Below, piece after piece: positions 3,191-40,570 of a stretch of DNA of 64,000 nt. Every line of letters starts with the position of its first letter. Within the stretch, counting starts at the first letter, position 1. A program made the translations under genes and the position numbers. This DNA comes from a virus (Duplodnaviria; Heunggongvirae; Uroviricota; Caudoviricetes), in IMG/VR virus record IMGVR_UViG_3300037245_003487, positions 41,441 to 105,440 of that record; one strand, written 5' to 3'. The notes below the pieces were generated by a model. It was not told the origin of the DNA, made no database searches, and saw nothing but the letters and a program-made list of their open reading frames with translations.

Positions 3191-3323
3191 TAATTCCCCT
3201 TATCTATATTACTATTCATCTCTACTTGATTTTTAATAATAGTACCCTGATTTTCTACTGTTCGCTTTATATTTATATTATTTTCTATAAGTATAAATAT
3301 GATAATAATTAATAATACATATA

Positions 3324-3578: not shown

Positions 3579-3856
3579 TCAATCACCTCAAAATCTTCAT
3601 ACGTATATCTTAAACAAAATTCATCTGTATTGCTTTTATTTAATTTATCTAATTCTTGTAAACATTTTTTTTCGCTTTTATACACAGCTATAATTTGTTC
3701 GAAAATTAAATCTGATATTATATACACTTTCATGATTTTTCTTTTCATCATCCCTCTCATATCATCTCTTATTTTAATAAAGTCTTCTGCCTTTACATCA
3801 CATGCATCGCCCATTTTCATCACCATATAAACATACATCCAATTATAGCTATCCAA
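3575..3856 (-). CDS. hypothetical protein
   Basis: 93-aa ORF, 4-nt overlap with downstream gene. Confidence 0.3.
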   Translation of the reverse strand: MDSYNWMYVYMVMKMGDACDVKAEDFIKIRDDMRGMMKRKIMKVYIISDLIFEQIIAVYKSEKKCLQELDKLNKSNTDEFCLRYTYEDFEVIE

Positions 3857-3952
3857 ATTCCAACCATCACACTACTTAAAAGCATTGCAGTTATACTTAA
3901 TCCAAACACGCCTAAAGTAAGAATCGCTTTTACCATATTATCACAATCCATA

Positions 3953-4837: not shown

Positions 4838-6095
4838 TCAATGTAAACCTCCCATTATAAACTTTTAAAAACGCTAAATATATATCTTCTATATCGCTAT
4901 CTTCAAGAGGCAAACTATGAAGCAGTGTGATAAATAACTCTTTCTCTTGCATTCTTTTTAAAACAGGAAAATCATCAATGCTATGCTTACCTTTAAAAAT
5001 TGGAAAGGATCCTAAAAAACTTATATACCCATTATTAATCTGTACACCCTTATCAAGTCTACCTTCTTCTTCAGTTAACTCAGCTCTAACAGCTTCCAAA
5101 AACACGTCTCTTTCTATACCAATTGAATCTTCATCATAAATAAATGGAAGTACATAATAAGAGTTGACATCACAATTATTTTTTGCTAAACTTATTCCAG
5201 GAACAGAGCATAATTTATCTGATAATTTTTTAACATTATTTTTTCTTAATAATACAATATCATCAAGTTTCTTTAATTGCTCCCTTAAAATAACAGCCTG
5301 AATCTCTGACATCCTTAAATTCATCCCAGGATAATTGAAGTCTTTAAATTTATTTTGACCTTCTACTGGCATGTCATTAATAACAGCATCTAAATGATTT
5401 CTTCCTAATGCACACTTTATAAATAACTCATCACTATCAGTTACTATCATTCCGCCTTCACCACAAGTTAAGGTTTTGCCTTGTGTAAAACTGAAACATC
5501 CTATATGACCAGCAAATCCAGCATAAACACCATCTCTTTTACTATTTATAGCTTGAGCTGCATCCTCTATCACATATAAGTGATTATCCAATGCTATTTT
5601 ATTTATAGCTTTATAATCATATATATTACCAAATAGATCTACAACTATAATAGCTTTGGTATTTTTAGTTATTTTTCTTTTAACATCTTCAGGATCTAAA
5701 CAAAAGCTATCATCTATATCTGCAAATACAGGTATAGCACCATAATGCATACAAATAGTAGCACTGCATGACATTGAATATCCGGTAACTATAACCTCAT
5801 CACCAGGCTTTAATCCTATAGCTCCACATGCCACATATAATGCCGATGTACAGCTATTAACTGCTAATGCATTATAATTAGGATTGAATTTACGTGAAAA
5901 CTCTCTTTCGAGTTCCTTTACCTCATGGCCTCCCATAAAGTTCGATCCAAAGTTGCCACGAAAAGCTGATAGAACCTTGCTTTCCATAACCCTTTGCACT
6001 GCTTTTGCTTCCTCAGTACCTATTGTTTTTTGACTTGGAAACAGTGTTGTACGAACCTTATTTCCACCTTTTATTGCAAGTTTATCCATTAACAC
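4830..6095 (-). CDS. DegT/DnrJ/EryC1/StrS-type PLP aminotransferase (PseC-like)
   Basis: 421 aa; GDEVIVTGYSM, FSFTQGKTLTCGEGGMIVTD (PLP-lysine region); 8-nt overlap with NeuB-like gene. Confidence 0.7.
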   Translation of the reverse strand: MLMDKLAIKGGNKVRTTLFPSQKTIGTEEAKAVQRVMESKVLSAFRGNFGSNFMGGHEVKELEREFSRKFNPNYNALAVNSCTSALYVACGAIGLKPGDEVIVTGYSMSCSATICMHYGAIPVFADIDDSFCLDPEDVKRKITKNTKAIIVVDLFGNIYDYKAINKIALDNHLYVIEDAAQAINSKRDGVYAGFAGHIGCFSFTQGKTLTCGEGGMIVTDSDELFIKCALGRNHLDAVINDMPVEGQNKFKDFNYPGMNLRMSEIQAVILREQLKKLDDIVLLRKNNVKKLSDKLCSVPGISLAKNNCDVNSYYVLPFIYDEDSIGIERDVFLEAVRAELTEEEGRLDKGVQINNGYISFLGSFPIFKGKHSIDDFPVLKRMQEKELFITLLHSLPLEDSDIEDIYLAFLKVYNGRFTLND

Positions 6096-6345
6096 CTACT
6101 TTTAATAATTCTAAATCAGATTCAAAACATCTAATCTCTTCAATTTTACCATTATTATTTATGTATTCAACATCATAAACATAACATTCTTTTTCTTTAC
6201 ATAATCTCATAATTACTCCATTTAAATCATGAGTAATCAATTTAACTTTATCATCGATACCAAATTTAAAATTCATGGTATTCGGAGGATAACATCCTAT
6301 TTTACCACAATTAGGCGTTCTTATATTCGGGGTACACCAACACAT
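6082..6345 (-). CDS. hypothetical protein
   Basis: 87-aa ORF. Confidence 0.3.
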   Translation of the reverse strand: MCWCTPNIRTPNCGKIGCYPPNTMNFKFGIDDKVKLITHDLNGVIMRLCKEKECYVYDVEYINNNGKIEEIRCFESDLELLKVGVNG

Positions 6346-6357
6346 ATTTTTTCTCCT

Positions 6358-6978
6358 TTATTTTGTAAAATCTCTATATTTTAATTTAGTAATAATCCGC
6401 TCTCCATTTCTGCATTTTAATTCAATTTCTGGTCTAGCAACAATGCCTTCAGCAATAAAGTCACCCCATTGAGAATTAAAACCTTTTTTGGTAATTATTA
6501 TCATATCACGCAATGTTCCGCTCCCTATAATTGGAGTAACTTCAATTTCCAGTTCTAATGCTATTTTTTCTATATCAACTCTATTTAACCACCAGTCACC
6601 TATACTAATGTCAAATAATACAAAATCATTTACATCCTTATATTTTCCGCCTTTTTGTATTTTAGGTCCATAACCCTCTCCATACAAACAAACATCGCAA
6701 TTAAATAATTCTTTAAATTTCTCATGTTTAGATAAAAATTTACTATTCAATTCATTTAGTAATCCGATTGGTATTTGAGCATTATCAGTTTTTCCATTAA
6801 ATAATATTTTGCTATCTTTAAATTGAATTCTTATATTTGTACCATCAATTTTCTCAGTAAAAATCCATTTATTATCCTGTAAATACTCAAATTCTGGTAA
6901 TGAATATTCACTTGTTAATATTTTCATATCATCAGGATCTCTTTTAAAAACTGTTTGTATTTTATGATATTTTTTCAT
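6358..6978 (-). CDS. minimal ATP-dependent polynucleotide ligase (Rnl-like nucleotidyltransferase)
   Basis: Nucleotidyltransferase motifs I KIDGTN, III VLFDISIG, IV IAEGIVARP, V ITKLKYRDF in a 206-aa protein. Confidence 0.55.
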   Translation of the reverse strand: MKKYHKIQTVFKRDPDDMKILTSEYSLPEFEYLQDNKWIFTEKIDGTNIRIQFKDSKILFNGKTDNAQIPIGLLNELNSKFLSKHEKFKELFNCDVCLYGEGYGPKIQKGGKYKDVNDFVLFDISIGDWWLNRVDIEKIALELEIEVTPIIGSGTLRDMIIITKKGFNSQWGDFIAEGIVARPEIELKCRNGERIITKLKYRDFTK

Positions 6979-7156
6979 TTTCTCTCCTTAATTTTTTATT
7001 ATTTATAACAAGACTTTAATTTACCATTTGATTGATATATACCAGAATTAATTAATTCCTGTCTTGCTTGTTCAGGTGTATAATTTTTTATTTCCTCATG
7101 ATGTCTTCTTAATATTTCTAATTCTTTTTTTGTTTCGTTAGATATATATTCTTTTA

Positions 7157-8149
7157 TCACCTTTTATTCCTTAAATATTCTATTACTTTATGAACCTGAA
7201 CCGCATCTTCTGCAGTACATTTAAGTTCTTCATTATTATCTAAATGACTTACAACATTATCATACATATTAGGTAGGCAATTAGTTAATTCTATACTTCC
7301 ATCAATATCTGCAGTTCCAGATAAACTAGCATAATTACCATATGTATCTTCTTGTGTTACTGGGTAGAACTTAAATCCCTGAAACCAATCATCTAGAACT
7401 ATTTTACCTTGTTCTGTAATTATTTCCATTTCAAAACAAGCAGCTTTCCTGCCATCAACTGGAACCATAAATATATTAGGACATTTTTCATAAGACATCC
7501 AGATTGGAACTGTTGGGTCCTCACTTGATAAATCATTAATCCATACAGAGTCGTTCCCTAAAATTCTTCCGTCTCTAAATTCTCCAAAAAACCAATTGCA
7601 AATATCTATAGCGTGTGGTGCGTCCCTTAATAAACCTCTGTTATAATTAAATACAGCACTATAAATATTTCCAAACTTACCTTCCTTTAGATCATTTCTA
7701 AAGGCTTGAATTTCATTAGAATATCTTCTTGTGTAATTTATAGAAATCGGTATTAAATTAGAATAAAATTGATTATAAATATCTCTAGCATTTCTTAAAT
7801 TATCACAAAACGGTTTTTCACAAACAATAATCAGTGGCTCTAATATCTTTATAATTTCACTTAATAATAAATAATGAGAAGTAGTTGCTGATGAAATAAC
7901 TATTATATCTACGCTTTCCTTAATATCTGTAAAGTATAAATAGGGCTTAGTATCCCATTTTTTTGCAGCTTCAATGGCTTTTTCAAAATCCATATCTATA
8001 ACTCCAACTAAATTTATATTTTCATTTTTACAAATTGCATTTGCATGTGTTTTTGGAACAGTGTCTTTACTGTCAAATACAACGTCTTTAGATGTGCCTA
8101 TAGAGCCACATCCTATTATTATTGCATTATATTTCATAAATGACTCCAT
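7157..8149 (-). CDS. Gfo/Idh/MocA family NAD(P)-dependent sugar oxidoreductase
   Basis: N-terminal Rossmann AIIIGCGSIGTSK plus family-typical C-terminal alpha/beta domain. Confidence 0.65.
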   Translation of the reverse strand: MESFMKYNAIIIGCGSIGTSKDVVFDSKDTVPKTHANAICKNENINLVGVIDMDFEKAIEAAKKWDTKPYLYFTDIKESVDIIVISSATTSHYLLLSEIIKILEPLIIVCEKPFCDNLRNARDIYNQFYSNLIPISINYTRRYSNEIQAFRNDLKEGKFGNIYSAVFNYNRGLLRDAPHAIDICNWFFGEFRDGRILGNDSVWINDLSSEDPTVPIWMSYEKCPNIFMVPVDGRKAACFEMEIITEQGKIVLDDWFQGFKFYPVTQEDTYGNYASLSGTADIDGSIELTNCLPNMYDNVVSHLDNNEELKCTAEDAVQVHKVIEYLRNKR

Positions 8150-8652
8150 GTTCTTCTACTAACTATACCATTTATTCCACCTACGGAATAACCAAACTTT
8201 TTCCCTATTTCTTTCTTGGAGCATTTTCCAGAATCATGCATTTTCCTGATCTCTAAAACTTGCTCATTAGATAATCTTGATTGTGAAGATTTCTCTCCTC
8301 TATTTGAACTTAATCCATTTTTAAATGCGTGTATCATATTTTCATGACAGTCACACCATTCTAAATTATCTACATGATTATTATCTTTATTACCATCCTT
8401 ATGATTAACTTGTGGTTTATTACCTATATTAGTTATAAAATGTATTGCAACTAATCTATGGGCCTTACAAGACTTGTTTTTTGAATTACCCCATAAATTA
8501 ACTATACAATATCCATTTTTATCCTTTCTGTGTTTTTTCACAACACCTTTATATAATCTATTCCTTATAGTCCTATCTAAAGATCTGGTTCTGCCATAAC
8601 TTGATACTTGATAATAGCCTTCATAACCATCGATATCTTTCCAAATTTCCAT
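8134..8652 (-). CDS. HNH homing endonuclease with NUMOD4 motif
   Basis: WKDIDGYEGYYQVSSYGR (NUMOD4) then NHKDGNKDNNHVDNLEWC (HNH_3); 16-nt overlap with the oxidoreductase gene; RBS AAGGAG. Confidence 0.75.
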   Translation of the reverse strand: MEIWKDIDGYEGYYQVSSYGRTRSLDRTIRNRLYKGVVKKHRKDKNGYCIVNLWGNSKNKSCKAHRLVAIHFITNIGNKPQVNHKDGNKDNNHVDNLEWCDCHENMIHAFKNGLSSNRGEKSSQSRLSNEQVLEIRKMHDSGKCSKKEIGKKFGYSVGGINGIVSRRTWSHL

Positions 8653-8690
8653 ATTGCTCCTTAATTTAAAACTTTATTTACAAATTTACT

Positions 8691-8718
8691 GGGGACCCTC
8701 TACCACTGAGGTAATAGC
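8691..8718 (-). ncRNA. tRNA 5'-half-like fragment (acceptor + D-arm)
   Basis: Minus-strand GCTATTA-CCTCAGTGGTAGAGG. No matching anticodon or T-arm downstream; abuts the RBS of the HNH gene. Confidence 0.3.
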
Positions 8719-8769
8719 TTATTAGGCTTCTAAATAACTTATCATGAGTATTATTTAAAAGTTTTCCAT

Positions 8770-8805
8770 TACGCTATGCAGGATTCGAACCTACGACAGA
8801 ACCCC
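8770..8805 (-). ncRNA. tRNA 3'-half-like fragment (T-arm + acceptor 3' strand)
   Basis: Minus-strand GTAGG-TTCGAAT-CCTGC-ATAGCGT; no 5' partner found. Confidence 0.3.
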
Positions 8806-8830
8806 TAGTAAATCGATAATTAAATAAAAC

Positions 8831-8948
8831 GGATAGAGAGAAAGGATTTGAACCTTTCATGCCTCTAAGTGTATATATGCGCACAAGTAAATCAACTCGA
8901 AACACTTATTTTTCCATGAGAGCTTAGCCATTCAGCTTATCTCTATCC
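8831..8948 (-). tRNA. tRNA-like gene with an insertion of about 45 nt (118 nt overall)
   Basis: Acceptor GGATAGAG/CTCTATCC, D-arm AGCT-GAATGGCTA-AGCT, perfect T-arm AAAGG-TTCAAAT-CCTTT. No canonical anticodon arm; about 45 extra nt before the T-arm. Confidence 0.35.
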
Positions 8949-9067
8949 TAATTTAACTGAATGTACTACTAGATTTACACTCAGGTAATTTCAATCTTAA
9001 TTAAGAATAACACAATATGTAAATTATGTCAAGTCTATTTATATGTCATTTACATTTAATTTACAAC

Positions 9068-9829
9068 CTAATCTACTCCTGGAATTTTACTTATCTTAGA
9101 GCTATTAGCATCAAGGATATGCGGACATCTCTTGATTAGATCTATAATATCATTATATGTAAAATCAATTCTATTAAAGTAATTAATTATTTTTTTAATA
9201 ACAATTAAATCTTCTGGATGATCTAAGACTAATCTAACTTCTGGCATAAAATCATCTGCAGATTTATTTCCAACCATTATTCCGAGATTGAATAAATTCT
9301 GCAATTCACCTAAGTTATTAATAATATTCCAACCGATATGCGTTCTGTGCTGTTCATTTTCAACAATTTTATTAACTGATAATAAAATATCAGCATCAAA
9401 TATTTGTATATCAGCACCATCAAAAAAGCTTCTTGTTAGAGTATTTGAATAAAAATTATATCCGTAACTATGAAATTCATCTAACATACTATCAATCATT
9501 TCTGGGCAAATTAACTGGCAATCGCTCGTCAAATCAATAATAGTATCATTATAAAAATTAAAATCATCAATCAATCCACATACCCTTTGCATTACATCAT
9601 TCTCGCTACCAATATAATAATGCCATCCATTTTGAATACAAAGCTCAACAAGCTCCTTGTCAGCTGGATTATCAGTTGTTGCAATAAAAATTTTATCAAT
9701 TTTCTTAGATAATCTCAATCGCTCTACCATAAATTCCAATGCTGTCATGTGGCCGAAAACTGTTTGCATGATCTTGCCAGGAAATCTCGTACTACCTAGT
9801 CTACATTGTATAATTGCTATATTACTCAT
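9068..9829 (-). CDS. acylneuraminate/pseudaminate cytidylyltransferase (NeuA/PseF/SpsF family)
   Basis: N-terminus IAIIQCRLGSTRFPGKI matches the CMP-sugar synthetase P-loop-like motif. Confidence 0.65.
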   Translation of the reverse strand: MSNIAIIQCRLGSTRFPGKIMQTVFGHMTALEFMVERLRLSKKIDKIFIATTDNPADKELVELCIQNGWHYYIGSENDVMQRVCGLIDDFNFYNDTIIDLTSDCQLICPEMIDSMLDEFHSYGYNFYSNTLTRSFFDGADIQIFDADILLSVNKIVENEQHRTHIGWNIINNLGELQNLFNLGIMVGNKSADDFMPEVRLVLDHPEDLIVIKKIINYFNRIDFTYNDIIDLIKRCPHILDANSSKISKIPGVD

Positions 9830-19488: not shown

Positions 19489-22400
19489 TTAACCGCAACG
19501 GCTCCATGAACATTTTGGGCATTTAACACATCCTTCTTGGAATATCAACTCTCCACCACACTGGCATTTCTCTGTAGACTTAGTGCCTTCTTTAATGTAC
19601 TTCTTTAATGCTCTAGCTATACATTTCTCAAAGTCAGCTAATAACCCACCAGACTTATTTATCTGCTCAATAATAAAGTGCAATGGAACTTGATGTCTTA
19701 AGCAGGTTGAAACTAATCTAGTTACAGCTTCATGAGTTTTATTATCAAATATAGCATTAAGATCTGATATAATAATTTCATCTTCAATTTCTATTTGATA
19801 TCTACCTTTTGTAGCCTTGATAATATTAACTTCTTTAACTTTCGATGGTATATCTACATTTTCTATTTTTCCAGCAAAAGTTTCATAAGGACAATCATCT
19901 ACAATACCAATAAATACAATCCATTTCTCGCCATTAACTTGCACTCTATGAACATCATGATGAACAGATTTAGGTCTTTTAGGAGCACATCTTTCGCAGT
20001 CCTCATCGTTGGTAATAAGTATACCTTCTCTGCTACCTTTACGATAAACAGTTACACCGATTATACCTTTCTTATGAGCCGCTTTATAAATATCACTTAT
20101 TTCTTTCTTTGATATATTTTCAGGTAAATTCAAGGTTTTGCTTACTGATAATGATACATTGTTAGCAACTTTCTCTAGTATATTTAAATGCTCCATTGGA
20201 GTTAAATCATTTGATACTTGAAAAATAGCTTTATGTTCATCTGATAAATATTTAGATTCTTGACATGATCCAGTTAAGGAAACTTCTAATAAAATCTTAG
20301 ACTTATCCTCAAGATAATTTTCAGATAAAAACTCATCAAATACAGGATCTGTTTGATACATAATCTCATACTCACCATTACCTAACTCAACTTTTCTTTT
20401 ATACGTTAAAGCGAATACAGGCTCTATTCCACTTGATGTGTCTGCAATCGTTGATATACTTCCTGTCGGTGCAATTGATGTAATACATGAATTTCTAATT
20501 CCATATTTTTTTATATCCAATTTTAATTGTTTAATATTTACATCTAAAATTTTATCTTCAGTAAAAAATCTTTTATTGGCATCCATAAAAACATCATAAT
20601 CAAACGCTGGATAAGGACCTAGTTTTACAGCAATTTTAACAGATACTTCCATTCCTTTAATTGTCATATATCTATTTATCTTTTCAGTAAAATTCAAAGC
20701 TAGTTGAGAGTCATAAGGGATTCTTAATTTATACATAGCATGAGCTAATCCCATTTCTCCTAATCCTATAGGGCGTATCTTTTCTGTAACTTCTTTAATT
20801 TTGGGAATAGGAAATTTATTTACATCTATTACTTTATCAAGGAAAATAACAGATCTTTTGATTTGTCTGCCTAATTCATCCCAGTTAAATTCACCATCGT
20901 CAACAAATTTAACTAAATTTATAGAACCTAAGTTACAGCTTGCATAAGGCACATTTATAAACTCAAAACAATTTGAAATATTTAATCCATTACACCAAAA
21001 TGTATGTGAATCATTATCAACTGTAATATCAAAAACTTCCATTTCACCTAATTCTGTTTTTTCTTTAATATCAAAATTCACTTTATTTCTATTGGATTTT
21101 TTAATTTCTTTTACTATTTTAGCTAATTTATCATTTTTATATTTCTGTATAAATGCAATATCATGGTAAAATAAATCTCTATCAGATGTTATATTTAAAT
21201 CATACGACTTTTTACTGATATACTCTCCATTATCCCATTTTATTTTTGATGGTTTATTAGTTGTGTAATAAGATTTAATCCCTATGGAAGACAACATTAT
21301 CTGTACTTGTTCTATCAATTTAAGTGACGTAGCCTTCAAAGTAACTCTTTCGCCACAGATAGATCCGTTAGCTGAATACAATCCTCTTAAAAATGATTTA
21401 ATTGAATTTGATGTTGTATACATATATCTTTCAGGTATTTCTCTTATAGGCAACAAATCTAACTCTTCTTTTTTTACATTAGTTTTAACTCGGTAAGTTT
21501 TAGGATCACTTGGATAGGTTTTTTTAAGAATAAAACTACTTATCTCTGAATTAAAATAGTCGTGGTCATTTTCTCCTATAGTCAAGTAAACATCATAATT
21601 TTTACCTGGATTTAAATTTCTCGATCCATCGCCAACAATTAATCCATCCATAATTAATTGAAGATCAAATTCATCAAACTTTTCATAATTGCCAACCAAC
21701 ACATCTATATTTTCAGCTTTTTTTAGTTCTATTTTTAATCCTTTAGACATAATTTGATGATTGTCGGTAGCATATAAATGCCCTGCGCTAGTAACCCACT
21801 TATGAACTTTTTTTATTCCACTCGACCATTTATTAGTAATTTTAGTCCATCCTTCGCCAGACCATACACAATCGCCTATATTCAAATCCTTTAATTGTTT
21901 AGGTCCATATGGCGTTAATAGTATTGAAAATTCTGGAATACATGGATTTGGGCATACAGTGGTATCAACGTTCTTAACCGAACACCTATCCCATGCGATA
22001 TCATAATTTATCAAACTTGGCTCTGCATTAGCCCATGATAATTCTATAATTTCATCCCATAACTCTTCAACGCTTACTTCCTGAAAAGTACCATCTATTA
22101 ATTTTATACTTTTACCGTTTTTAAATTTAACCTTATGCACATCATTAGGTTGATTATCTAGTTTATCGTAAAAATCATTATACATTTTAACAGATAGATT
22201 AAATCTTGCTAAAGGAGCTTTTATTTTACCATCTGCGACCAATTTTTTTATTTCCAAAGACAACACCTTTGATCTTATAAAATTTAGTATATCCGGGTGA
22301 TATACACTAAGTATTCCTCCGCCAGCTCCTTTTCTAGCCCCACCTTGATTTATGCTATTCAAAACATCATTAAAATTAGATAAAAATGGCATTGGACCAG

Positions 22401-22755
22401 ATGATTTAGCATTATTTAATGTTTTAATTATCTCATAAGAGCTTCTTAATGGAGAAAAATCATATCCAACTCCTCCACAAGCCTTAGTTACCAAAGCACA
22501 CTCTTTAATTGAATCATAAATTCCTTCTATACTATCTTCTAATTTCATAGGAAAACATGATGATAAAGTTCCTTCCCTTTTACCACCAGTATTAGCATTC
22601 ATTAATGTAGGTGTTGAAGGTATAAACCTCATTTCTAATATATCATTTTCTATTTCTGGGTAGATATCTGACACTCTTTTAGTAAGTTCTTCCCAGGACG
22701 ACTCACCTTCAATAAAATATCTATCTCGTAATAATTTTAATATTGACTCTTTCAA
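19489..22755 (-). CDS. ribonucleotide reductase catalytic subunit (probably class II NrdJ-like), interrupted by an intein
   Basis: Extein motifs ...CPNP|C...FEFINVPYASCNLGSINL, GLGEMGLAHAM, C-terminal CxxC...CxxC. 764 aa after intein removal. Confidence 0.75.
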   Translation of the reverse strand: MKESILKLLRDRYFIEGESSWEELTKRVSDIYPEIENDILEMRFIPSTPTLMNANTGGKREGTLSSCFPMKLEDSIEGIYDSIKECALVTKACGGVGYDFSPLRSSYEIIKTLNNAKSSGPMPFLSNFNDVLNSINQGGARKGAGGGILSVYHPDILNFIRSKVLSLEIKKLVADGKIKAPLARFNLSVKMYNDFYDKLDNQPNDVHKVKFKNGKSIKLIDGTFQEVSVEELWDEIIELSWANAEPSLINYDIAWDRCSVKNVDTTVCPNPCIPEFSILLTPYGPKQLKDLNIGDCVWSGEGWTKITNKWSSGIKKVHKWVTSAGHLYATDNHQIMSKGLKIELKKAENIDVLVGNYEKFDEFDLQLIMDGLIVGDGSRNLNPGKNYDVYLTIGENDHDYFNSEISSFILKKTYPSDPKTYRVKTNVKKEELDLLPIREIPERYMYTTSNSIKSFLRGLYSANGSICGERVTLKATSLKLIEQVQIMLSSIGIKSYYTTNKPSKIKWDNGEYISKKSYDLNITSDRDLFYHDIAFIQKYKNDKLAKIVKEIKKSNRNKVNFDIKEKTELGEMEVFDITVDNDSHTFWCNGLNISNCFEFINVPYASCNLGSINLVKFVDDGEFNWDELGRQIKRSVIFLDKVIDVNKFPIPKIKEVTEKIRPIGLGEMGLAHAMYKLRIPYDSQLALNFTEKINRYMTIKGMEVSVKIAVKLGPYPAFDYDVFMDANKRFFTEDKILDVNIKQLKLDIKKYGIRNSCITSIAPTGSISTIADTSSGIEPVFALTYKRKVELGNGEYEIMYQTDPVFDEFLSENYLEDKSKILLEVSLTGSCQESKYLSDEHKAIFQVSNDLTPMEHLNILEKVANNVSLSVSKTLNLPENISKKEISDIYKAAHKKGIIGVTVYRKGSREGILITNDEDCERCAPKRPKSVHHDVHRVQVNGEKWIVFIGIVDDCPYETFAGKIENVDIPSKVKEVNIIKATKGRYQIEIEDEIIISDLNAIFDNKTHEAVTRLVSTCLRHQVPLHFIIEQINKSGGLLADFEKCIARALKKYIKEGTKSTEKCQCGGELIFQEGCVKCPKCSWSRCG
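20971..21942 (-). mobile_element. intein with LAGLIDADG homing-endonuclease domain inside the RNR gene
   Basis: Starts CIPEFSILL after NP; DOD blocks LIMDGLIVGDGS and FLRGLYSANGS; C-terminal block FDITVDNDSHTFWCNGLNISN followed by Cys+1. Confidence 0.7.
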
Positions 22756-25177: not shown

Positions 25178-25559
25178 TTATTTTGATTTAAAATTATATA
25201 TAGGCTTAACAAAACAATGAATATCAACAGTTTCACTTATTGCATTTATAATCATATCTTTATCTTTGTACGCTCCTTTTACTTCGTCTAACGTCTCTTT
25301 ACATAAAGAAGTAGTATAAATACCCTTTTCTTCCATTGATTTTCTTGCATCTTCTAAGCTTAATTCTTTTTTAGCTTTTGACCTGGACAAAACTCTACCA
25401 GCTCCATAATGACAATCAGGCATAATAGCAATATAAGATTTTCCAAATGCAGGATGATTAAGAAAACCATAAATTTGTTTCCTTGTTGCTTCATCTAAAT
25501 ATGAGTCATCTGGAAGCATAATGTTCGCAGAATTATACTGCGCTTTAATTGTAATCATT
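25178..25559 (-). CDS. RtcB N-terminal-domain-like protein (truncated relative to RtcB RNA ligase)
   Basis: LDEATRKQIYGFLNHPAFGKSYIAIMPDCHYGAGRV aligns with the RtcB N-terminal region (AVMPDVHLGKG). Only 127 aa; start set at MITIK with RBS AAGGAG. Confidence 0.4.
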
Positions 25560-25604: not shown

Positions 25605-25907
25605 TTATCTACTAAAATCGTACTTCTTAACAATATCTTCAACGCAATGCATTACATCAAATAACATTTCCTGTTTTGTTGTTAGATTACCATCTGAAGA
25701 TGCTAAAAGCTTACCTAATCTTTCCTGAAGATTATTTTCTTTAGCTCTTATAATAGCTACTCTTTTAGCTTTTTGTTTATCCCATTGATCTAATGGATTA
25801 CATAAGCTATAACCAATTTGATCCTTAGATATAGCCACGACTACACCAACAGGCTTTCCACGACCTTTTTCATCAGCTTTCTTTTCCCTCAAATACTTTA
25901 TAACCAT
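25605..25907 (-). CDS. hypothetical protein
   Basis: 100-aa ORF. Confidence 0.3.
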   Translation of the reverse strand: MVIKYLREKKADEKGRGKPVGVVVAISKDQIGYSLCNPLDQWDKQKAKRVAIIRAKENNLQERLGKLLASSDGNLTTKQEMLFDVMHCVEDIVKKYDFSR

Positions 25908-26080: not shown

Positions 26081-26273
26081 AATCCTTTAATAAAAATACA
26101 ACCAAGGAATTTGCAGCCCTGGTTGTTTTTAGTTTAGTTTTTACTGAACTATAACAGGCATTTTCATTACGCTCTGATTTACTTCAGCCGATCTTGTTAC
26201 ATTAAGACATGAACGCTATAGTTTTTACCGTTGTTAATAGTCAACTTTCCAGACATCTGCATAATATCTGTAT

Positions 26274-26347
26274 TAGCTAGGGTGGGAATCGGACCCACAT
26301 TTGACTGCCTTATGAGAGCAGTGTGTTACCAGTACACTACCTAGCGA
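26274..26347 (-). tRNA. tRNA-Met (anticodon CAU; elongator-type or Ile2-type)
   Basis: D GTGT/ACAC, anticodon arm CTGCT-CTCATAA-GGCAG, T GTGGG-TCCGATT-CCCAC; C1-U72 mismatch. Confidence 0.65.
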
Positions 26348-26349
26348 CG

Positions 26350-26497
26350 TATTGCCAACAGTAGGACTTGAACCCACGAATGCCAACATACACAAGTTAT
26401 CAACTTATAAATGCTTGTTTAAATGCTGATGAAACATTCAATTCAAATAGGCAACCTCCAGTTTAATCTGGTGCTCTGCCACTGAGCTATATTGGCG
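26350..26497 (-). tRNA. tRNA-like gene with an insertion of about 70 nt (148 nt overall)
   Basis: Acceptor GCCAATA/TGTTGGC, D-arm GCTC-AGTGGCA-GAGC, T-arm GTGGG-TTCAAGT-CCTAC. No canonical anticodon arm; TGTTGGCA occurs twice flanking the T-arm. Confidence 0.35.
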
Positions 26498-26502
26498 TTA
26501 AA

Positions 26503-26970
26503 TTACTTCAATTCATCAAATAATACTACAGAATTCTCTAACACTTTCATTAACTGCTTCGTAATATTAAACTTCTTTGAATTAATCTCAATGGAAGTTT
26601 TAATATTACCATCATTATGTCTTTCACTGGCAGCTTTCCAATCACAAAACATTTCAATAATATCTATAATAGTCATATCATTAACACCGTTTTTAAAGTG
26701 ATTTGGATGGTGTCTATTATTTGCATAGTGATGATCGAGTGCTGGTTTCATTTCTTCCAGGAAGCCCTTGTATTCTTCGCTATTATACGTTGATTCAGCT
26801 AATCTTGGTGTATACTCAGCAAACACCTCTAATTCTGGACTTTCCAATTTACTATTATCGTGATTTAACCCCCTAGTAATTAACTGTTTACACACAAGCA
26901 TTAAATATTCATTAACTTTTTCCCTATGCTTCCTAGTGGATTCATTAGAGACTAATTCTTTCGTATTCAT
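26503..26970 (-). CDS. hypothetical protein
   Basis: Start moved to MNTKEL (RBS AGGAGAA); the longer ORF-track call would overlap tRNA-Glu. Confidence 0.4.
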   Translation of the reverse strand: MNTKELVSNESTRKHREKVNEYLMLVCKQLITRGLNHDNSKLESPELEVFAEYTPRLAESTYNSEEYKGFLEEMKPALDHHYANNRHHPNHFKNGVNDMTIIDIIEMFCDWKAASERHNDGNIKTSIEINSKKFNITKQLMKVLENSVVLFDELK

Positions 26971-30011: not shown

Positions 30012-30036
30012 CAGGCATTAGGTGATTTGAACACCT
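30012..30036 (-). ncRNA. tRNA 3'-half-like element (T-arm AGGTG-TTCAAAT-CACCT + acceptor 3' strand), preceded by A10 run
   Basis: D-arm-like 5' element GGCGTAT-TA-GCTT..AAGC lies about 90 nt upstream (30111-30140). Could be one tRNA-like gene with a large insertion. Confidence 0.3.
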
Positions 30037-30489
30037 TTTTTTTTACAACTTAGGTATGCGCTTTTTTACATATGATATTACAAGCAACAGTGACTAAGAC
30101 TTACATAAAACGCTTTATACCAATATTAAGCTAATACGCCTATAAAATTAAGTAAACATGAAGGCGATGCGATCCATGGTTGGAATTTAACAGCTTACCT
30201 GCATTCACTTCCCTCATGACCATTTACTTGAGGTGCTTACTTAATTGATTGATTGTTGTTGTTTCAAATGCTCGCATTAGGAATCACCTCTCGCTTAACA
30301 TTAAGATAGTTTTATGACTTCTTAACGGTCCTACTAATTAGATTTCCGTTTTCTTTGAAAAACGATAAACAGGTATCTATCTGGGTCCACAGTCATGGAA
30401 TCGTACTATTTCTACTCACAGCTTGCCAGCCTTGTAGGAGCTATCATATCCATGCTTTATACGTACGCAGCTACCGCACGATGCTTAAT

Positions 30490-30559
30490 TTGCATTGACT
30501 GGAATCGAACCAGCTACTATACCAGCGAACCGATACTTGCTACCAAACAATCCAATGCA
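30490..30559 (-). tRNA. tRNA-like gene (anticodon arm unresolved)
   Basis: Perfect 7-bp acceptor TGCATTG/CAATGCA, T-arm GCTGG-TTCGATT-CCAGT, D-loop TTGGTAG; anticodon stem not foldable by hand. Confidence 0.35.
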
Positions 30560-38013: not shown

Positions 38014-38081
38014 TCCTTTGATATTTAATTACTTATAACATATATATTTCAATGAGTCAATATGTTTTACAATCTCCTTAC
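38014..38081 (-). promoter_or_regulatory. promoter TTGACT-N17-TATAAG with the same conserved upstream element
   Basis: Second copy of GTAAGGAGATTGTAAAACATATTGAC, followed by leader with AAGGAGG RBS. Confidence 0.45.
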
Positions 38082-39758
38082 GTTATCTCTAATTTCCTGC
38101 AATGTAAAGTCTTTAAGTAATTTACCATCTTTAAATACCGTTTTTAAAATACCAGTCTTCTCAACTTCTGGAGTAACTTCTTCATGTAGTTTAAAGTTTT
38201 CATCAACCATAAGCAATCCTTTTGCTGATTTTTTAAGGCCATCATCGGTTACAGGATCTTTGAAGATATTACGAGCCTCACCATTAACTACTCCATATGT
38301 AGCCTTCATTGCAAAACCCAGCGAGTCCCTTGTTAAAAAATTGTAGGAAAATGACCCGATCCCTAAAACAACATTTGTTGACGTAAACCCTTTAGATTCA
38401 AGCCTTTTACAGATTTCCTCACATCTCTTCATTGTTATTGCATCGCCATAAATAGCTCCAATATGGGTATCAAGCTGCTTAAAGCCTTTACTATTGACTT
38501 CGCCACCAAATGTATTCCATAGAAGCTCAATAACGCCTAAATCTTCAGGTCTAACCTCTAATCTTTCATAACTAACTGATTTTATTCCATCAACAACATA
38601 ATGATCATTATCATTCATATCATGCATTTTGCCTATTTCAGCTATTACTACAACTCTATAGATTTCAGATCCTATTTTACAAGTATCATTATATTCATCA
38701 CAATAACTATCGTCATCACAGTTTTCTACAAAGAAATCCCATGCAACATCGGTATAATAAGATTTTATATCATTAGTAGATGTTAAATATTTATCGCATT
38801 GAGTAAATACTTTTCCACATATTATATCTACAGGATCTCCGCTATCAGGTCTAATTACAACCTTACCATCTCTTGCCATAACTTCATTTTTAAGTTTTGG
38901 TAAATAATCAGTTAATACTTTCCATAAATCCCATGTATCAGATACAAGTGATATTATTCCAGATGGATATACTTTTGTGATTAGTCTTTTAAAAAGACCA
39001 AATTCGTCATTATCACCATTTAATGAAACAACAGAATGCTCAGTCGCACCAACGCTTCCGCCCACTAACTCTTTATCACAATTAGCACCATAATATTCTT
39101 CCATAAACGGTATTGCAGGTATCGTATCAGTTCCAGTAAATGATGTTAAATGACCTGACATTGAAGCGAGTTCTAATCCACCCATTCCCCTAAATGAAAA
39201 ATCATGTCCTTGCCAATCTACAAACTCTGGTATATCACTTGTTTTTTCTGCATAACCATCAAGTATTTCTCTATATTTAGCAGCAATAGTAGCGGTCGTC
39301 ATCGGAGACCAAATAATACATGACATTATACTTTCAATATAATTTGTCACCCAAAAAAATTCAGGTAAAGTATTCTTAATTGTAATACATGGAATTCTCA
39401 TTGGGCATTTAGTTCCTTCTTCCATAGCTTTAATCTCAAGTGGTAAATAACCAAGATCATGTAAAGCCTCGATATGATCCATTTTCACTACATCCGGACC
39501 TAATGAATTATCAAGTATTCTTTTGTATTCACCAACAACTTGCTCTTTAGGTAAATCAAAAAATCCTTCATTAAATTGATTAATCAGATATTCTTTAATA
39601 AAATACTGTAATCCAAATACGACTACTTCATTAATCCCTTCAATCCTTGAGCCTCTTGGTGTCCAATTTGAATAGACCATCTCAGTTCCTTCTGGATACT
39701 GATAAATATGACCTGTCTTGTAAAAATCTGCTAACAGCAGTGGGTTAATTCTTCTCAT
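38067..39758 (-). CDS. nicotinamide phosphoribosyltransferase family protein (NadV/NAMPT-like; candidate Namat)
   Basis: N-terminal LLADFYKTGHIYQYP signature of NAMPT; 563 aa. Confidence 0.7.
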   Translation of the reverse strand: MRRINPLLLADFYKTGHIYQYPEGTEMVYSNWTPRGSRIEGINEVVVFGLQYFIKEYLINQFNEGFFDLPKEQVVGEYKRILDNSLGPDVVKMDHIEALHDLGYLPLEIKAMEEGTKCPMRIPCITIKNTLPEFFWVTNYIESIMSCIIWSPMTTATIAAKYREILDGYAEKTSDIPEFVDWQGHDFSFRGMGGLELASMSGHLTSFTGTDTIPAIPFMEEYYGANCDKELVGGSVGATEHSVVSLNGDNDEFGLFKRLITKVYPSGIISLVSDTWDLWKVLTDYLPKLKNEVMARDGKVVIRPDSGDPVDIICGKVFTQCDKYLTSTNDIKSYYTDVAWDFFVENCDDDSYCDEYNDTCKIGSEIYRVVVIAEIGKMHDMNDNDHYVVDGIKSVSYERLEVRPEDLGVIELLWNTFGGEVNSKGFKQLDTHIGAIYGDAITMKRCEEICKRLESKGFTSTNVVLGIGSFSYNFLTRDSLGFAMKATYGVVNGEARNIFKDPVTDDGLKKSAKGLLMVDENFKLHEEVTPEVEKTGILKTVFKDGKLLKDFTLQEIRDNVRRL

Positions 39759-40570
39759 AAATCCTCCTTTATTAATTTAATTTGTCTATATTTATATACT
39801 TCTAATATTTTTTCATCCCATAAAGTAACACTATATATACTGCTTATCAATCCATCAAATACACCTAATCCTTTACTAAAAATACCATGAGATACAAATA
39901 ACCTTACTGTCTCAGCACCACGATCTTTAAGTATTTTAGCTATCTCAATAAAGGTCCTTCCTCCATCACAAATATCATCTATGATTAAACAATCTTTGCC
40001 TTTAAAATTATCACATTTTATTTCAGTATGAATTATTTCACCTGTATGTGGGTTTCTAATTTTACTACATCCAGCAACTGCCAAATCAAGTTTATTACCT
40101 ATTGCCCATATTTTCTTTCTAGCACCTTCATCTGGTGAAATCAAAATTGTGTTGCCATGAATTGGAACTTGCTTAATTAAAGGCATTATATCAATTTCAT
40201 AGCACTTATTTAATAACGCTGTACTTACTGGGGAATGATTATCAAGAGTGCGTACTACGTTATAATTCTGACTATTAATTAAATCACAAAATACTTTAAT
40301 ACTTAATGATTCACCTGGAACCATAACACGATCTTGTCTTGCATATGGCACGTAAGGAAGAATGAGTCTCATAAAACCTGGGCCTATGCGCCTTAGTGCA
40401 TCAGTAACTAATAACAACTTCATTATATCATTTGAATTTCGTATAAAAGCTTCAATAGTTATAACTGGATCAATTTCACCTTTAATTTTTACATGCTCTT
40501 CGCCACCATTAAAAGTAAAAAATTCACATTCTATTTTTCTATAACCAAAACCGTAAACTTTAATCATCAT
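39755..40570 (-). CDS. ribose-phosphate pyrophosphokinase family protein (Prs-like; candidate Adps)
   Basis: LPYVPYARQDR and PRPP-binding LIIDDICDGGRT; 4-nt overlap with the NAMPT-like gene. Confidence 0.65.
   Translation of the reverse strand: MMIKVYGFGYRKIECEFFTFNGGEEHVKIKGEIDPVITIEAFIRNSNDIMKLLLVTDALRRIGPGFMRLILPYVPYARQDRVMVPGESLSIKVFCDLINSQNYNVVRTLDNHSPVSTALLNKCYEIDIMPLIKQVPIHGNTILISPDEGARKKIWAIGNKLDLAVAGCSKIRNPHTGEIIHTEIKCDNFKGKDCLIIDDICDGGRTFIEIAKILKDRGAETVRLFVSHGIFSKGLGVFDGLISSIYSVTLWDEKILEVYKYRQIKLIKEDL

What the first reader, a model, noticed from the sequence alone, without database searches (positions are those of the whole stretch)
26350..26497. tRNA-like genes interrupted by 50-75-nt insertions between anticodon region and T-arm (three instances)
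Three loci show the same anomaly (8831-8948, 26350-26497, 30012-30140). Each has a perfect 7-bp acceptor pairing or a D-arm-like 5' element, and a textbook T-arm. Between them lie 118-148 nt in total, far longer than any normal tRNA, and no canonical anticodon stem. Neighbouring tRNAs (Lys, Tyr, Met, Glu, Gly, Gln) fold cleanly, so this is not just an AT-rich artefact. The phage also encodes a minimal Rnl-type ligase (6358-6978) and an RtcB N-terminal-like protein (25178-25559). The possibilities are intron- or insertion-containing tRNAs needing end-healing and ligation, permuted or chimeric tRNAs, or decayed pseudo-tRNAs. At 26350-26497 the 3' acceptor strand TGTTGGCA is duplicated on both sides of the T-arm, which hints at a duplication or recombination scar.
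Basis: seen in the sequence. Interest (0 to 1): 0.65.

Follow-up and report, generated by a model that had tools for sequence, protein, structure and literature searches.

The report
Oversized tRNA-like genes in a phage
A large phage carries several over-long tRNA-shaped genes: one is an isoleucine tRNA gene broken by a 62-base insertion that does not look like an intron, another belongs to a Y-RNA (Ro60-partner) locus, and none shows evidence of splicing, so the find is unusual but probably not a new tRNA-intron system.

Summary
Locus 2 (26353-26496, minus strand) is real: Rfam's tRNA model scores it 43.4 bits with about 72 extra nt. A canonical anticodon arm (AUAAG-UUGAUAA-CUUGU, Ile GAU) lies inside the "insertion". 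The true extra piece is 62 nt (26409-26470) between the D-arm and that arm, plus a 13-nt variable hairpin. Removing it gives a clean 82-nt tRNA-Ile.

The insert has no group I, ribozyme or bulge-helix-bulge features. The "RtcB" ORF lacks about 330 central residues. A syntenic relative has an ordinary tRNA-Thr in this slot, and no homolog was found in any collection searched.

Locus 1 (8831-8948) lies beside a permuted, YrlA-like tRNA mimic (8672-8820). In a relative, the same slot encodes Rsr/Ro60 with Y RNAs and another tRNA-like RNA whose anticodon arm is replaced. Locus 3 is weak.

The three inserts are unrelated in sequence. The closest precedents are T4 RNAC/RNAD and bacterial or phage Y RNAs.

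Best reading: tRNA-derived RNAs in a decaying RNA-repair and tRNA region. Locus 2 is a disrupted tRNA-Ile gene, not an intron-bearing one.

The parts
26353..26496 (-). Locus 2: 144-nt tRNA-derived gene (tRNA-Ile(GAU) body plus insertion). It starts 7 nt after the DUF5662 stop codon and ends about 5 nt before tRNA-Met.
   Evidence: Rfam tRNA 43.4 bits over the full-length model. Found by the strict custom detector. MFE fold keeps the acceptor, D and T arms, z = -2.85.
26473..26487 (-). Locus 2 D-arm, GCUC-AGUGGCA-GAGC. The acceptor 5' strand GCCAAUA is at 26490-26496.
26409..26470 (-). 62-nt insertion between nt 26 and the anticodon stem. It folds as two hairpins (CCAG-AUUAAA-CUGG, and a 9-bp hairpin at 26419-26441) and contains the direct repeat AGCAUUUA twice.
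   Evidence: Brute-force excision with ARAGORN, fold, repeats. No Rfam match at E <= 10. No other copy in the window.
26392..26408 (-). Canonical anticodon arm AUAAG-UUGAUAA-CUUGU, with anticodon GAU at 26399-26401, U33, A37 and A38.
   Evidence: Read directly from the sequence.
26378..26390 (-). Expanded 13-nt variable region with a small hairpin AUG-UUGG-CAU. It carries the internal copy of UGUUGGCA (26381-26388).
26353..26377 (-). T-arm GUGGG-UUCAAGU-CCUAC (26361-26377), acceptor 3' strand UGUUGGC, and discriminator A (26353).
8831..8948 (-). Locus 1: 118-nt tRNA-like RNA with a 9-bp acceptor-type stem, a D-like hairpin (AGCU-GAAUGGCUA-AGCU), a 62-nt middle arm and a 6-bp T-arm.
   Evidence: Fold z = -3.25, 0 of 200 shuffles as stable. 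Found by the relaxed detector. No Rfam tRNA hit. Lies in the slot syntenic to the Rsr/Y-RNA locus of L039.
8672..8820 (-). Permuted tRNA mimic of the Y-RNA (YrlA) type. Order: long closing stem, T-arm (8778-8794), capped acceptor-like hairpin with a 54-nt loop region, D-arm (8697-8711).
   Evidence: Rfam YrlA 24.1 bits, below the cutoff of 69. Fold z = -4.42 reproduces the permuted cloverleaf. The relative's counterparts score 36.7 bits and lie next to TROVE.
9004..9032 (-). Promoter-like site (TTGACA, 17 nt, TG-extended TATTCT) about 50 nt upstream of locus 1.
   Evidence: This is a consensus match only.
30012..30141 (-). Locus 3: weak tRNA-like element with a T-arm (30020-30036), a D-like arm and a 6/7 acceptor stem. 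It ends about 4 nt before tRNA-Phe.
   Evidence: Found by the relaxed detector only. No Rfam hit. Fold z = -1.48. Not restored by any single excision.
30490..30559 (-). Normal-length degenerate tRNA with a perfect 7-bp acceptor stem and an aberrant anticodon arm (6- or 8-nt loop).
   Evidence: Rfam tRNA 27.4 bits, just below the cutoff of 29. Detector hit. Missed by ARAGORN.
25178..25558 (-). RtcB remnant, 126 aa. It aligns only to residues ~54-72 and 402-464 of the 481-aa P. horikoshii RtcB.
25605..25907 (-). 100-aa protein homologous to the 83-aa gene that directly follows TROVE/Rsr in relative L039.
   Evidence: tblastn 33% identity over 73 aa, E = 4.6e-13.
6358..6978 (-). 206-aa RNA ligase, an Rnl2-type nucleotidyltransferase domain without the C-terminal domain.
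   Evidence: PF09414 E = 8e-17. phrog_548. Matches T4 Rnl2 residues 26-165.
8134..8652 (-). HNH/NUMOD4 homing endonuclease gene, occupying the place where the relative has rsr, an 83-aa gene and DUF7873.

Best explanation
The three loci are tRNA-derived RNAs of different kinds, not one class of intron-bearing tRNA.

Locus 2 is a tRNA-Ile(GAU) gene inside the phage's tRNA array. It has gained a 62-nt two-hairpin block between the D-stem and the anticodon stem, and a roughly 9-nt expansion of the variable loop. These probably arose by local duplication or slippage; two 8-nt direct repeats mark the region.

Inferred: it is co-transcribed with the neighbouring tRNAs. Its intact acceptor/T-arm helix and elbow should still allow cutting by RNase P and the 3' processing enzymes, and CCA addition. 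That would give a 144-nt tRNA-shaped RNA. The block wedged at the hinge (position 26/27) most likely stops it decoding, and it is not removed by splicing. On this reading it is a recently disrupted tRNA gene whose product, if stable, is a tRNA mimic.

Locus 1 and the adjacent permuted element (8672-8820) are Y-RNA-type tRNA mimics with their own promoter-like site. They are what remains of an Rsr (Ro60)/Y-RNA module that a related phage still has intact in the same slot.

Locus 3 and the element at 30490-30559 are decaying tRNA genes.
For: Shown for locus 2:
- Rfam tRNA match at 43.4 bits.
- Excising 26409-26470 gives an 82-nt tRNA-Ile(GAU) with a 6-bp anticodon stem, U33 and A37, ARAGORN score 118.8.
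- No excision rescues loci 1 or 3.
- No intron or ribozyme family matches at E <= 10.
- The syntenic relative L038 (neighbouring protein 83% identical) has an ordinary 76-nt tRNA-Thr in the same slot.
- No homolog of the insert or of the Ile half was found in INPHARED, IMG/VR, JGI metagenomes or GTDB genomes.
- Two 8-nt direct repeats lie inside 144 nt.
- The adjacent RtcB is a deletion remnant.
- Another degenerate tRNA lies at 30490-30559.
- ATT and ATA are among the eight most-used codons, and the intact phage tRNAs track the top codons, so an Ile tRNA fits the set.

Shown for locus 1 and 8672-8820:
- Relative L039/L040 has, between the same flanking genes (CTP_transf_3 and GFO_IDH_MocA), a TROVE protein, four tandem Y-like modules (one scoring YrlA 36.7 bits, E = 3e-5), a second permuted module, and an Rfam tRNA hit (33.3 bits) with 56 nt replacing the anticodon arm.
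- The window's permuted element scores YrlA 24.1 bits and folds as a permuted cloverleaf, z = -4.4.
- A promoter-like site lies upstream.
- The 100-aa gene beside locus 2 and RtcB is homologous to the gene that follows TROVE in L039.
Against: - Every stem of the locus 2 tRNA body is intact (25 bp), as are all the core tertiary nucleotides. The whole RNA folds better than shuffles (z = -2.85). This fits either a very recent disruption or selection for a functional tRNA-shaped RNA, and the data cannot tell these apart.
- The only other copy of locus 2 (L036) comes from a 99.99%-identical contig, so there is no covariation or conservation test.
- No expression data are available.
- The window's Y-like elements lack the GAAyUGA...UACAUCG motif shared by the relative's four Y RNAs.
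- No rsr gene was found in the window or in 9.5 kb beyond its low end. About 48 kb of this phage's genome was not examined.
- A second TROVE-bearing phage locus (L042) has no detectable tRNA-like RNA.
Confidence: 0.5

Rival explanations
1. Locus 2, and perhaps loci 1 and 3, are purpose-built stable tRNA-like non-coding RNAs. The tRNA body would serve as a processing and stability scaffold (RNase P, CCA addition, tRNA modification enzymes). The inserted hairpins would carry the function, for example as decoys for host tRNA-targeting nucleases, or as partners of Rsr or RNA-repair proteins. This is the same kind of molecule as T4 RNAC/RNAD or Y RNAs.
For: - T4 encodes RNAC (139 nt) and RNAD (119 nt) inside its tRNA cluster next to a homing endonuclease. 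RNAC has a canonical T-arm, an acceptor-like closing stem and about 100 nt of hairpins, z = -4.6.
- Both T4 RNAs are expressed, and their functions are still unknown (PMC9697503, PMC3014915).
- Y RNAs with tRNA-like modules are substrates of tRNA enzymes (PMC4201824).
- All stems and core nucleotides of locus 2 are intact.
- Three long tRNA-like elements in one window exceed chance, P = 0.015.
- The relative's Rsr locus holds a tRNA-like RNA whose anticodon arm is replaced by 56 nt.
- The gene next to locus 2 is homologous to an Rsr-adjacent gene.
Against: - Locus 2 is not conserved in the one syntenic relative.
- No homolog was found anywhere else.
- The inserts share no sequence with each other, with T4 RNAC or with the relative's element.
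- The Y-RNA motif is absent.
- Keeping a perfect anticodon arm is unnecessary for a scaffold RNA and points to recent descent from a working tRNA.
Confidence: 0.3
2. Locus 2 is a functional split tRNA-Ile(GAU). The 62-nt block at position 26/27 would be a new kind of protein-dependent intron. A nuclease (for example RNase III acting on the insert hairpins, or an unidentified phage enzyme) would cut it out, and the phage Rnl2-type ligase would rejoin the halves after end-healing.
For: - One excision gives a near-perfect tRNA-Ile.
- The phage encodes an RNA ligase domain and a metallophosphoesterase ORF.
- Ile codons are heavily used, and no intact phage tRNA-Ile is present in the window.
Against: - There is no bulge-helix-bulge motif, because the exon ends GAGCAC and AUAAG cannot pair (read from the sequence).
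- There is no group I or group II core and no small ribozyme.
- Position 26/27 is not a known bacterial intron site (established knowledge).
- RtcB is a remnant.
- The ligase lacks the Rnl2 C-terminal domain.
- No splicing endonuclease family appeared among about 50 ORFs scanned.
- The spliced product would still carry an abnormal 13-nt variable arm for an Ile tRNA.
- Loci 1 and 3 cannot be rescued by any excision.
Confidence: 0.07
3. The loci are chance look-alikes in AT-rich intergenic DNA, with no relation to tRNA.
For: - A single relaxed-criteria long hit arises in 26% of shuffled windows.
- Locus 3 has no covariance-model support and folds no better than shuffles.
Against: - Locus 2 has Rfam E = 6.5e-6 over the whole window.
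- The strict detector expects 0.06 long hits per window.
- All three hits lie on the coding strand in gene-free gaps that abut tRNAs or tRNA mimics.
- Locus 1 has z = -3.25 and a syntenic Y-RNA context.
Confidence: 0.03

Closest known systems
Bacteriophage T4 species 1 and species 2 RNAs (RNAC/rnaC, 139 nt; RNAD/rnaD, 119 nt)
   Same: - They are long stable RNAs encoded inside a phage tRNA gene cluster, next to a homing endonuclease gene.
- RNAC has a canonical T-arm followed by an acceptor-like 3' strand that pairs with the 5' end, with about 100 nt of hairpins in between.
- Their sizes are close to those of loci 2 and 1.
- Their function is unknown.
- There is no Rfam family for them.
   Different: - There is no detectable sequence similarity.
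- RNAC has no clear D-arm or anticodon arm and gets no tRNA-model hit, whereas locus 2 keeps every tRNA element and passes the Rfam tRNA threshold.
- The host group and the phage family are different.
Bacterial and phage Y RNAs: YrlA (Rfam RF02553) and D. radiodurans Yrn1, partners of Rsr/Ro60
   Same: - They are tRNA mimics with T- and D-arms that are handled by tRNA enzymes (PMC4201824).
- Element 8672-8820 has the YrlA topology: closing stem, T-arm, capped acceptor-like hairpin, D-arm.
- The syntenic relative encodes TROVE with four or five such modules.
- Yrn1 keeps the D-to-T order with its ends in the acceptor-equivalent stem, as loci 1-3 do.
   Different: - The scores are far below the Rfam cutoff: 24.1 and 36.7 bits against 69.
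- No rsr gene was found in the window or in the flank examined.
- The motif shared by the relative's Y RNAs is absent from the window.
- Loci 1-3 are not permuted.
- Locus 2 has a genuine anticodon arm.
Intron-containing tRNA genes (archaeal/eukaryal bulge-helix-bulge introns; bacterial group I introns in tRNA-Leu, fMet, Ile, Arg, Asn, Asp)
   Same: The tRNA gene is interrupted by non-tRNA sequence, and one excision restores a canonical tRNA-Ile.
   Different: - At 62 nt the insert is too short for a group I intron, and it matches no intron model.
- It is not in the anticodon loop.
- It has no bulge-helix-bulge motif.
- No endonuclease was found, and RtcB is truncated.
tmRNA tRNA-like domain, and class II tRNAs with long variable arms
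   Same: The topology is acceptor strand, D-region, long internal domain, T-arm, acceptor strand. The MFE fold can present most of the extra sequence as a giant branched variable arm.
   Different: - ARAGORN makes no tmRNA call.
- There is no G3:U70 pair, no tag reading frame and no pseudoknot domain.
- Class II variable arms are at most about 20 nt and occur in Leu, Ser and Tyr tRNAs, not Ile (established knowledge).

Membership tests
tRNA (Rfam RF00005) | Covariance-model score at or above the curated cutoff (29 bits) | tested here: met
   Locus 2 scores 43.4 bits over model positions 1-71. Not met by locus 1 (no hit at E <= 10), by locus 3 (no hit) or by 30490-30559 (27.4 bits).
tRNA (functional decoding tRNA) | Contiguous cloverleaf of about 70-95 nt, with the anticodon stem directly following nt 26 and a 7-nt loop | tested here: not met
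   Locus 2 is 144 nt. A canonical anticodon arm exists but is separated from the D-arm by 62 nt. ARAGORN in default mode does not call it.
Group I intron-containing tRNA | Intron of about 200 nt or more with a conserved catalytic core, usually in the anticodon loop | tested here: not met
   The insert is 62 nt. There is no Intron_gpI or any ribozyme match at E <= 10 in 26200-26700. It sits at position 26/27.
Bulge-helix-bulge (archaeal/eukaryal type) tRNA intron | Two 3-nt bulges separated by a 4-bp helix at the exon-intron junctions | tested here: not met
   By inspection, the 5' exon end (GAGCAC) and the 3' exon start (AUAAG) cannot pair to form the flanking helix. The MFE structure shows no such motif.
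Bulge-helix-bulge (archaeal/eukaryal type) tRNA intron | Splicing endonuclease plus a functional RtcB- or Trl1-type ligase available | tested here: not met
   RtcB aligns only to residues ~54-72 and 402-464 of 481. No endonuclease family appeared among the ORFs scanned. Host enzymes could not be examined.
YrlA-type Y RNA (Rfam RF02553) | Covariance-model score at or above the cutoff (69 bits) | tested here: not met
   Window 8681-8813 scores 24.1 bits. Relative L039 3966-4105 scores 36.7 bits.
YrlA-type Y RNA (Rfam RF02553) | Permuted tRNA-like module: closing stem, then T-arm, capped acceptor-like hairpin and D-arm | tested here: met
   Met for 8672-8820 in the Rfam alignment and in the MFE fold, z = -4.42. 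Loci 1-3 have the D-to-T order, so they are not of this type.
YrlA-type Y RNA (Rfam RF02553) | Encoded next to an rsr (Ro60/TROVE) gene and bound by Rsr | tested here: inconclusive
   There is no TROVE in the window or 9.5 kb beyond it. The syntenic slot of relative L039/L040 does encode TROVE. Binding cannot be tested here.
T4 RNAC/RNAD-like stable RNAs | Sequence or covariance homology to T4 rnaC or rnaD | tested here: not met
   Local alignment of the inserts gives p = 0.5-0.98 against shuffles. The resemblance is limited to location, size and the T-arm/acceptor layout.
tmRNA | tRNA-like domain with G3:U70, a tag reading frame and pseudoknots | tested here: not met
   ARAGORN finds no tmRNA in the window. 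The third acceptor pair is C-G in locus 2 and A-U in locus 1.

The most novel reading that the evidence does not exclude
Locus 2 is a working tRNA-Ile(GAU) despite its 62-nt block at the D/anticodon hinge. Either the block is removed by a previously unknown, protein-dependent cut-and-rejoin pathway that uses the phage's minimal Rnl2-type ligase, which would be a new class of bacterial or phage tRNA intron at position 26/27. Or it is kept as a fifth arm on a decoding or regulatory tRNA.
Probability: 0.07. Interest if true: 0.85.

Novelty: new variant of a known kind. Interest (0 to 1): 0.4.

Why it matters
If the best reading holds, this window captures how phage tRNA arrays and RNA-repair islands (Rsr, Y RNAs, RtcB, RNA ligase) break up and recycle tRNA genes into tRNA-shaped RNAs. 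That bears on where Y RNAs and the long-unexplained T4 RNAC/RNAD came from.

It also shows that standard tRNA finders miss such elements, and that a covariance hit with a long "loop" can hide a complete anticodon arm.

If the insert were spliced, it would be a new type of bacterial tRNA intron, but nothing found here supports that.

Tried and rejected
1. ARAGORN with intron options gives forced solutions: Tyr(AUA) with a 57-nt intron for locus 2, and Phe(AAA) and Val(UAC) at 80% thresholds for loci 3 and 1. All have weak stems, so I rejected them.
2. A Leu(UAA)-like reading of locus 2 uses the CCAG-AUUAAA-CUGG hairpin plus a long variable arm. It needs a 6-nt loop or mismatched pairs, so it is less canonical than the Ile(GAU) solution.
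3. I considered that the three inserts are copies of one element or a mobile repeat. There are no repeats in the window and no significant pairwise similarity. Loc1 vs loc2 gives p = 0.04 before correction for 10 tests, and the loc3 vs L039 match is only a poly-A run.
4. I considered that the locus 2 insert carries the Y-RNA motif (GAAUUGAAU...CAUCAG). An HMM built from the relative's four modules does not hit it. The best window hit has E ~0.1 and lies in a tail gene.
5. I tried to find homologs by DNA pattern. The 5' half plus hairpin, the conserved downstream anchor, and the anticodon-to-T-arm pattern gave zero hits in IMG/VR and JGI metagenomes. The only GTDB and JGI hits fall inside a Mur-ligase-like coding sequence of a Cloacimonadota genome.
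6. blastn against 50,697 phage records gave only generic D-arm and T-arm matches.
7. Thirty-four DUF5662-bearing viral loci contain no long tRNA-like elements. The single detector hit there bridges two adjacent normal tRNAs.
8. A homology search with the 100-aa neighbouring protein returned only the protein itself.
9. The 344-nt gap at 30141-30484 was tested as a structured RNA, tmRNA or group I intron. It gave z = -0.6 and no Rfam match.
10. A second TROVE-bearing phage locus (L042) has no tRNA-like RNA and no RtcB. The Rsr/long-tRNA-like association is therefore not general.
Full report
**Context.** The window comes from a ~122-kb myovirus-like phage with about 30% GC and all genes on the minus strand. 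The contigs Logan SRR11832402_6319 and JGI 3300043219 are 100% and 99.99% identical to it. Its proteins are only about 45% identical to those of large Bacillus and Clostridioides phages, and megablast finds no close isolate. ARAGORN calls seven ordinary tRNAs: Lys, Tyr, Met, Glu, Gly, Phe and Gln. These track the phage's most-used codons.

**Locus 2, the observation.** Rfam's tRNA model matches 26353-26496 (minus strand) over its whole length at 43.4 bits (cutoff 29; E = 6.5e-6 for the window). It places 81 nt where 9 are expected. The acceptor stem (7 bp), D-arm (GCUC/GAGC with G18G19), T-arm (GUGGG-UUCAAGU-CCUAC), U8, A14, A21 and a G15:C48 pair are all present. A strict home-made detector (T-arm, perfect 7-bp acceptor, D-arm) recovers it, and shuffled windows give 0.06 such long hits. 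The TGTTGGCA duplication is real, at 26353-26360 and 26381-26388. A second 8-nt repeat, AGCAUUUA, lies inside the insert. A shuffled 144-mer has at least one 8-nt repeat 11% of the time, so two repeats are only mildly suggestive of duplication or slippage.

**Locus 2, the anatomy.** I deleted every contiguous segment in turn and re-ran ARAGORN. Removing 61-62 nt just after the D-arm (26409-26470) leaves an 82-nt tRNA-Ile(GAU). It has a 6-bp anticodon stem (CAUAAG/CUUGUG), the loop UUGAUAA (U33, GAU, A37, A38), a small variable hairpin (AUG-UUGG-CAU) and the intact T-arm, and it scores 118.8. A canonical anticodon arm therefore does exist, at 26392-26408. The extra sequence lies between nt 26 and the anticodon stem, not between the anticodon and the T-arm. 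A competing Leu(UAA)-like solution needs a 6-nt loop or mismatched pairs. ARAGORN's own intron mode gives an unconvincing Tyr(AUA) solution. The unexcised RNA folds with the tRNA arms intact and the insert as two hairpins, z = -2.85.

**Is it an intron?** Nothing supports that.
- No group I, group II or small-ribozyme family matches at E <= 10, and 62 nt is far below group I size.
- The exon ends cannot pair to build a bulge-helix-bulge motif (read from the sequence).
- The 'RtcB' ORF (25178-25558) aligns only to residues ~54-72 and 402-464 of the 481-aa P. horikoshii enzyme. It is a deletion remnant.
- The 206-aa RNA ligase is real but is only the nucleotidyltransferase domain of an Rnl2-type enzyme.
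- No splicing endonuclease family appeared among about 50 ORFs scanned.

**Comparative evidence for locus 2.** The adjacent DUF5662 protein has just two relatives above 65% identity. One of them (L038, 83%) is syntenic and carries an ordinary tRNA-Thr(UGU) in the locus 2 slot. It is followed by an odd Met-like tRNA and by the same 55-aa and 100-aa genes. The other (L037) is not syntenic. Pattern scans of IMG/VR, JGI metagenomes and GTDB genomes, and blastn against 50,697 phage records, found no homolog of the insert or of the Ile half. The only pattern hits lie in a bacterial Mur-ligase-like gene. There is therefore no conservation or covariation evidence for locus 2. The tRNA array is clearly being reshuffled between relatives.

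**Locus 1 and its neighbour.** Locus 1 (8831-8948) has a 9-bp acceptor-type stem, a D-like hairpin, a 62-nt middle arm and a 6-bp T-arm, with z = -3.25. It gets no Rfam tRNA hit and cannot be rescued by any single excision. Seventeen nt downstream, Rfam gives a weak YrlA (Y RNA-like) match of 24.1 bits. The region 8672-8820 folds as a permuted cloverleaf (long closing stem, T-arm, capped acceptor-like hairpin, D-arm) with z = -4.42. A promoter-like site (TTGACA, 17 nt, TG-extended -10) lies upstream.

The decisive context comes from a relative found through the upstream cytidylyltransferase gene (58% identity; L039 and L040). Between the same flanking genes it encodes:
- a TROVE (Rsr/Ro60) protein;
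- four tandem Y-like modules sharing GAAyUGA...UACAUCG, the fourth scoring YrlA 36.7 bits (E = 3e-5);
- a second permuted module (z = -4.2);
- an Rfam tRNA hit (33.3 bits) in which 56 nt replace the anticodon arm.

In the window that slot holds locus 1, the permuted element and an HNH homing endonuclease. No TROVE gene is present in the window or in 9.5 kb beyond it. Chen et al. 2014 (PMC4201824) reported likely Y RNAs near Ro60 genes in more than 250 bacteria and phages. Those RNAs have tRNA-like modules and are handled by tRNA enzymes. Locus 1 is therefore best read as part of a Y-RNA-type locus that has lost its rsr gene, although the relative's motif is absent from the window.

**A link between the two regions.** The 83-aa gene that follows TROVE in L039 is homologous (E = 4.6e-13) to the window's 100-aa gene at 25605-25907. 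That gene lies between the tRNA-Met/locus 2 pair and the RtcB remnant. Both anomalous regions of the window thus look like pieces of a fragmented Rsr, Y-RNA, RtcB and ligase island. This is an inference from gene content and from the known rsr-yrlBA-rtcBA arrangement in Salmonella (PMC4201824, PMC7790460).

**Locus 3 and other elements.** Locus 3 (30012-30141) has a good T-arm and a D-like arm. Its acceptor stem is 6/7, it has no Rfam hit, its fold is not significant (z = -1.5), and no excision rescues it. Upstream, 30490-30559 is a normal-length tRNA just below the Rfam threshold (27.4 bits) with an aberrant anticodon loop. With relaxed criteria, exactly loci 1, 2 and 3 are found as long tRNA-like hits. 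Shuffles give 0.36 per window and P(>=3) = 0.015. The trio therefore exceeds chance, but locus 3 alone does not. The inserts are unrelated in sequence.

**Precedent.** T4's tRNA cluster encodes RNAC (139 nt) and RNAD (119 nt) beside the segB homing endonuclease. RNAC has a canonical T-arm, an acceptor-like closing stem and about 100 nt of hairpins (z = -4.6), and it has no Rfam family. Both are expressed, and their functions are still unknown. Long tRNA-shaped RNAs in phage tRNA arrays are therefore a known but unexplained kind.

**Verdict.** Locus 2 is a tRNA-Ile(GAU)-derived gene with a 62-nt non-intron insertion at the D/anticodon hinge and an expanded variable arm.
- Most likely (about 0.5) it is a recently disrupted tRNA gene whose product is a non-decoding tRNA-shaped RNA.
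- A selected tRNA-mimic function, like T4 RNAC or a Y RNA, is the main rival (about 0.3).
- Splicing is unlikely (about 0.07).

Locus 1 belongs with the adjacent Y-RNA-type mimic, and locus 3 is probably a decayed tRNA. Its splicing interpretation is not supported, while its 'decayed or chimeric' alternative is supported.

Noticed in passing
window 8672-8820 (-): A permuted tRNA mimic of the YrlA/Y-RNA type (T-arm before D-arm, long closing stem). The window has no rsr gene, but the syntenic slot in relative L039/L040 encodes TROVE/Rsr.
   Followed up: yes
L039 3596-4128 and 6698-7146: The relative's Rsr gene is preceded by four tandem Y-like modules sharing GAAyUGA...GAAwUACAUCG. It is followed, after DUF7873, by a second permuted module overlapping a tRNA-like RNA with 56 nt in place of the anticodon arm, and then by a T-arm-less class II-like tRNA 5' half with a CCU anticodon loop.
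   Followed up: partly
window 30490-30559 (-): A normal-length tRNA-like gene with a perfect 7-bp acceptor stem but a 6- or 8-nt anticodon loop. It scores Rfam tRNA 27.4 bits, just under the cutoff, and is missed by ARAGORN.
   Followed up: partly
window 30142-30489 (-): About 345 nt of gene-free sequence, richer in GC than its surroundings, between the degenerate tRNA and locus 3. It has no Rfam match and folds no better than shuffles. It remains unexplained.
   Followed up: partly
window 25178-25558 (-): An RtcB remnant in which about 50 N-terminal residues (...MPDCHYGAG) are fused to about 80 C-terminal residues. The junction lies in a GAG motif shared by both parts (MPDxHxGxG and HGAGR), which suggests an internal deletion between the two similar motifs.
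   Followed up: yes
window 26197-26275 (-): The ~66-nt stretch just downstream of tRNA-Met is about 95% identical to relative L038, while the whole intergenic alignment averages 78%. It contains a small ORF (MQMSGKLTINNGKNYSVHVLM; conserved in L038 from the second ATG).
   Followed up: no
window 25605-25907 (-) and L039 5648-5899: A small protein of unknown function is conserved next to Rsr in the relative and next to the RtcB remnant in the window (E = 4.6e-13). It may be an uncharacterised component of phage RNA-repair islands.
   Followed up: partly
window 8134-8652 (-): An HNH/NUMOD4 homing endonuclease gene sits exactly where the relative has rsr, the 83-aa gene and DUF7873. T4's RNAC and RNAD also lie next to a homing endonuclease gene (segB).
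   Followed up: partly
L038 ~720-800 (+): The relative's counterpart of tRNA-Met has a CAU anticodon arm but a 16-nt D-loop and terminal acceptor mismatches, and ARAGORN does not call it. It is another atypical tRNA in this lineage.
   Followed up: no
window 26274-26346 (-): The tRNA-Met(CAU) has a C1xA72 mismatch, an initiator-like feature. ATA is the sixth most-used codon, so a lysidine-modified Ile2 role cannot be excluded.
   Followed up: no
window 19489-22755 (-): The ribonucleotide reductase large subunit (1088 aa) carries a LAGLIDADG domain, probably an intein. This comes from the precomputed Pfam annotation of L035.
   Followed up: no
window 2038-9829 (-) and 38067-40570 (-): There is a nonulosonic-acid-type sugar pathway (Polysacc_synt_2, NeuB, DegT aminotransferase, GFO_IDH_MocA, CMP-type cytidylyltransferase). 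There is also an NAD salvage pair (NAMPT-like protein and PRPP synthetase).
   Followed up: no
L008/L015, L022 (DUF5662 loci): DUF5662 genes in distant phages often sit inside large tRNA arrays of 13-18 tRNAs, one array including a CUA-anticodon suppressor-type tRNA. This hints at a tRNA-related role for DUF5662.
   Followed up: no
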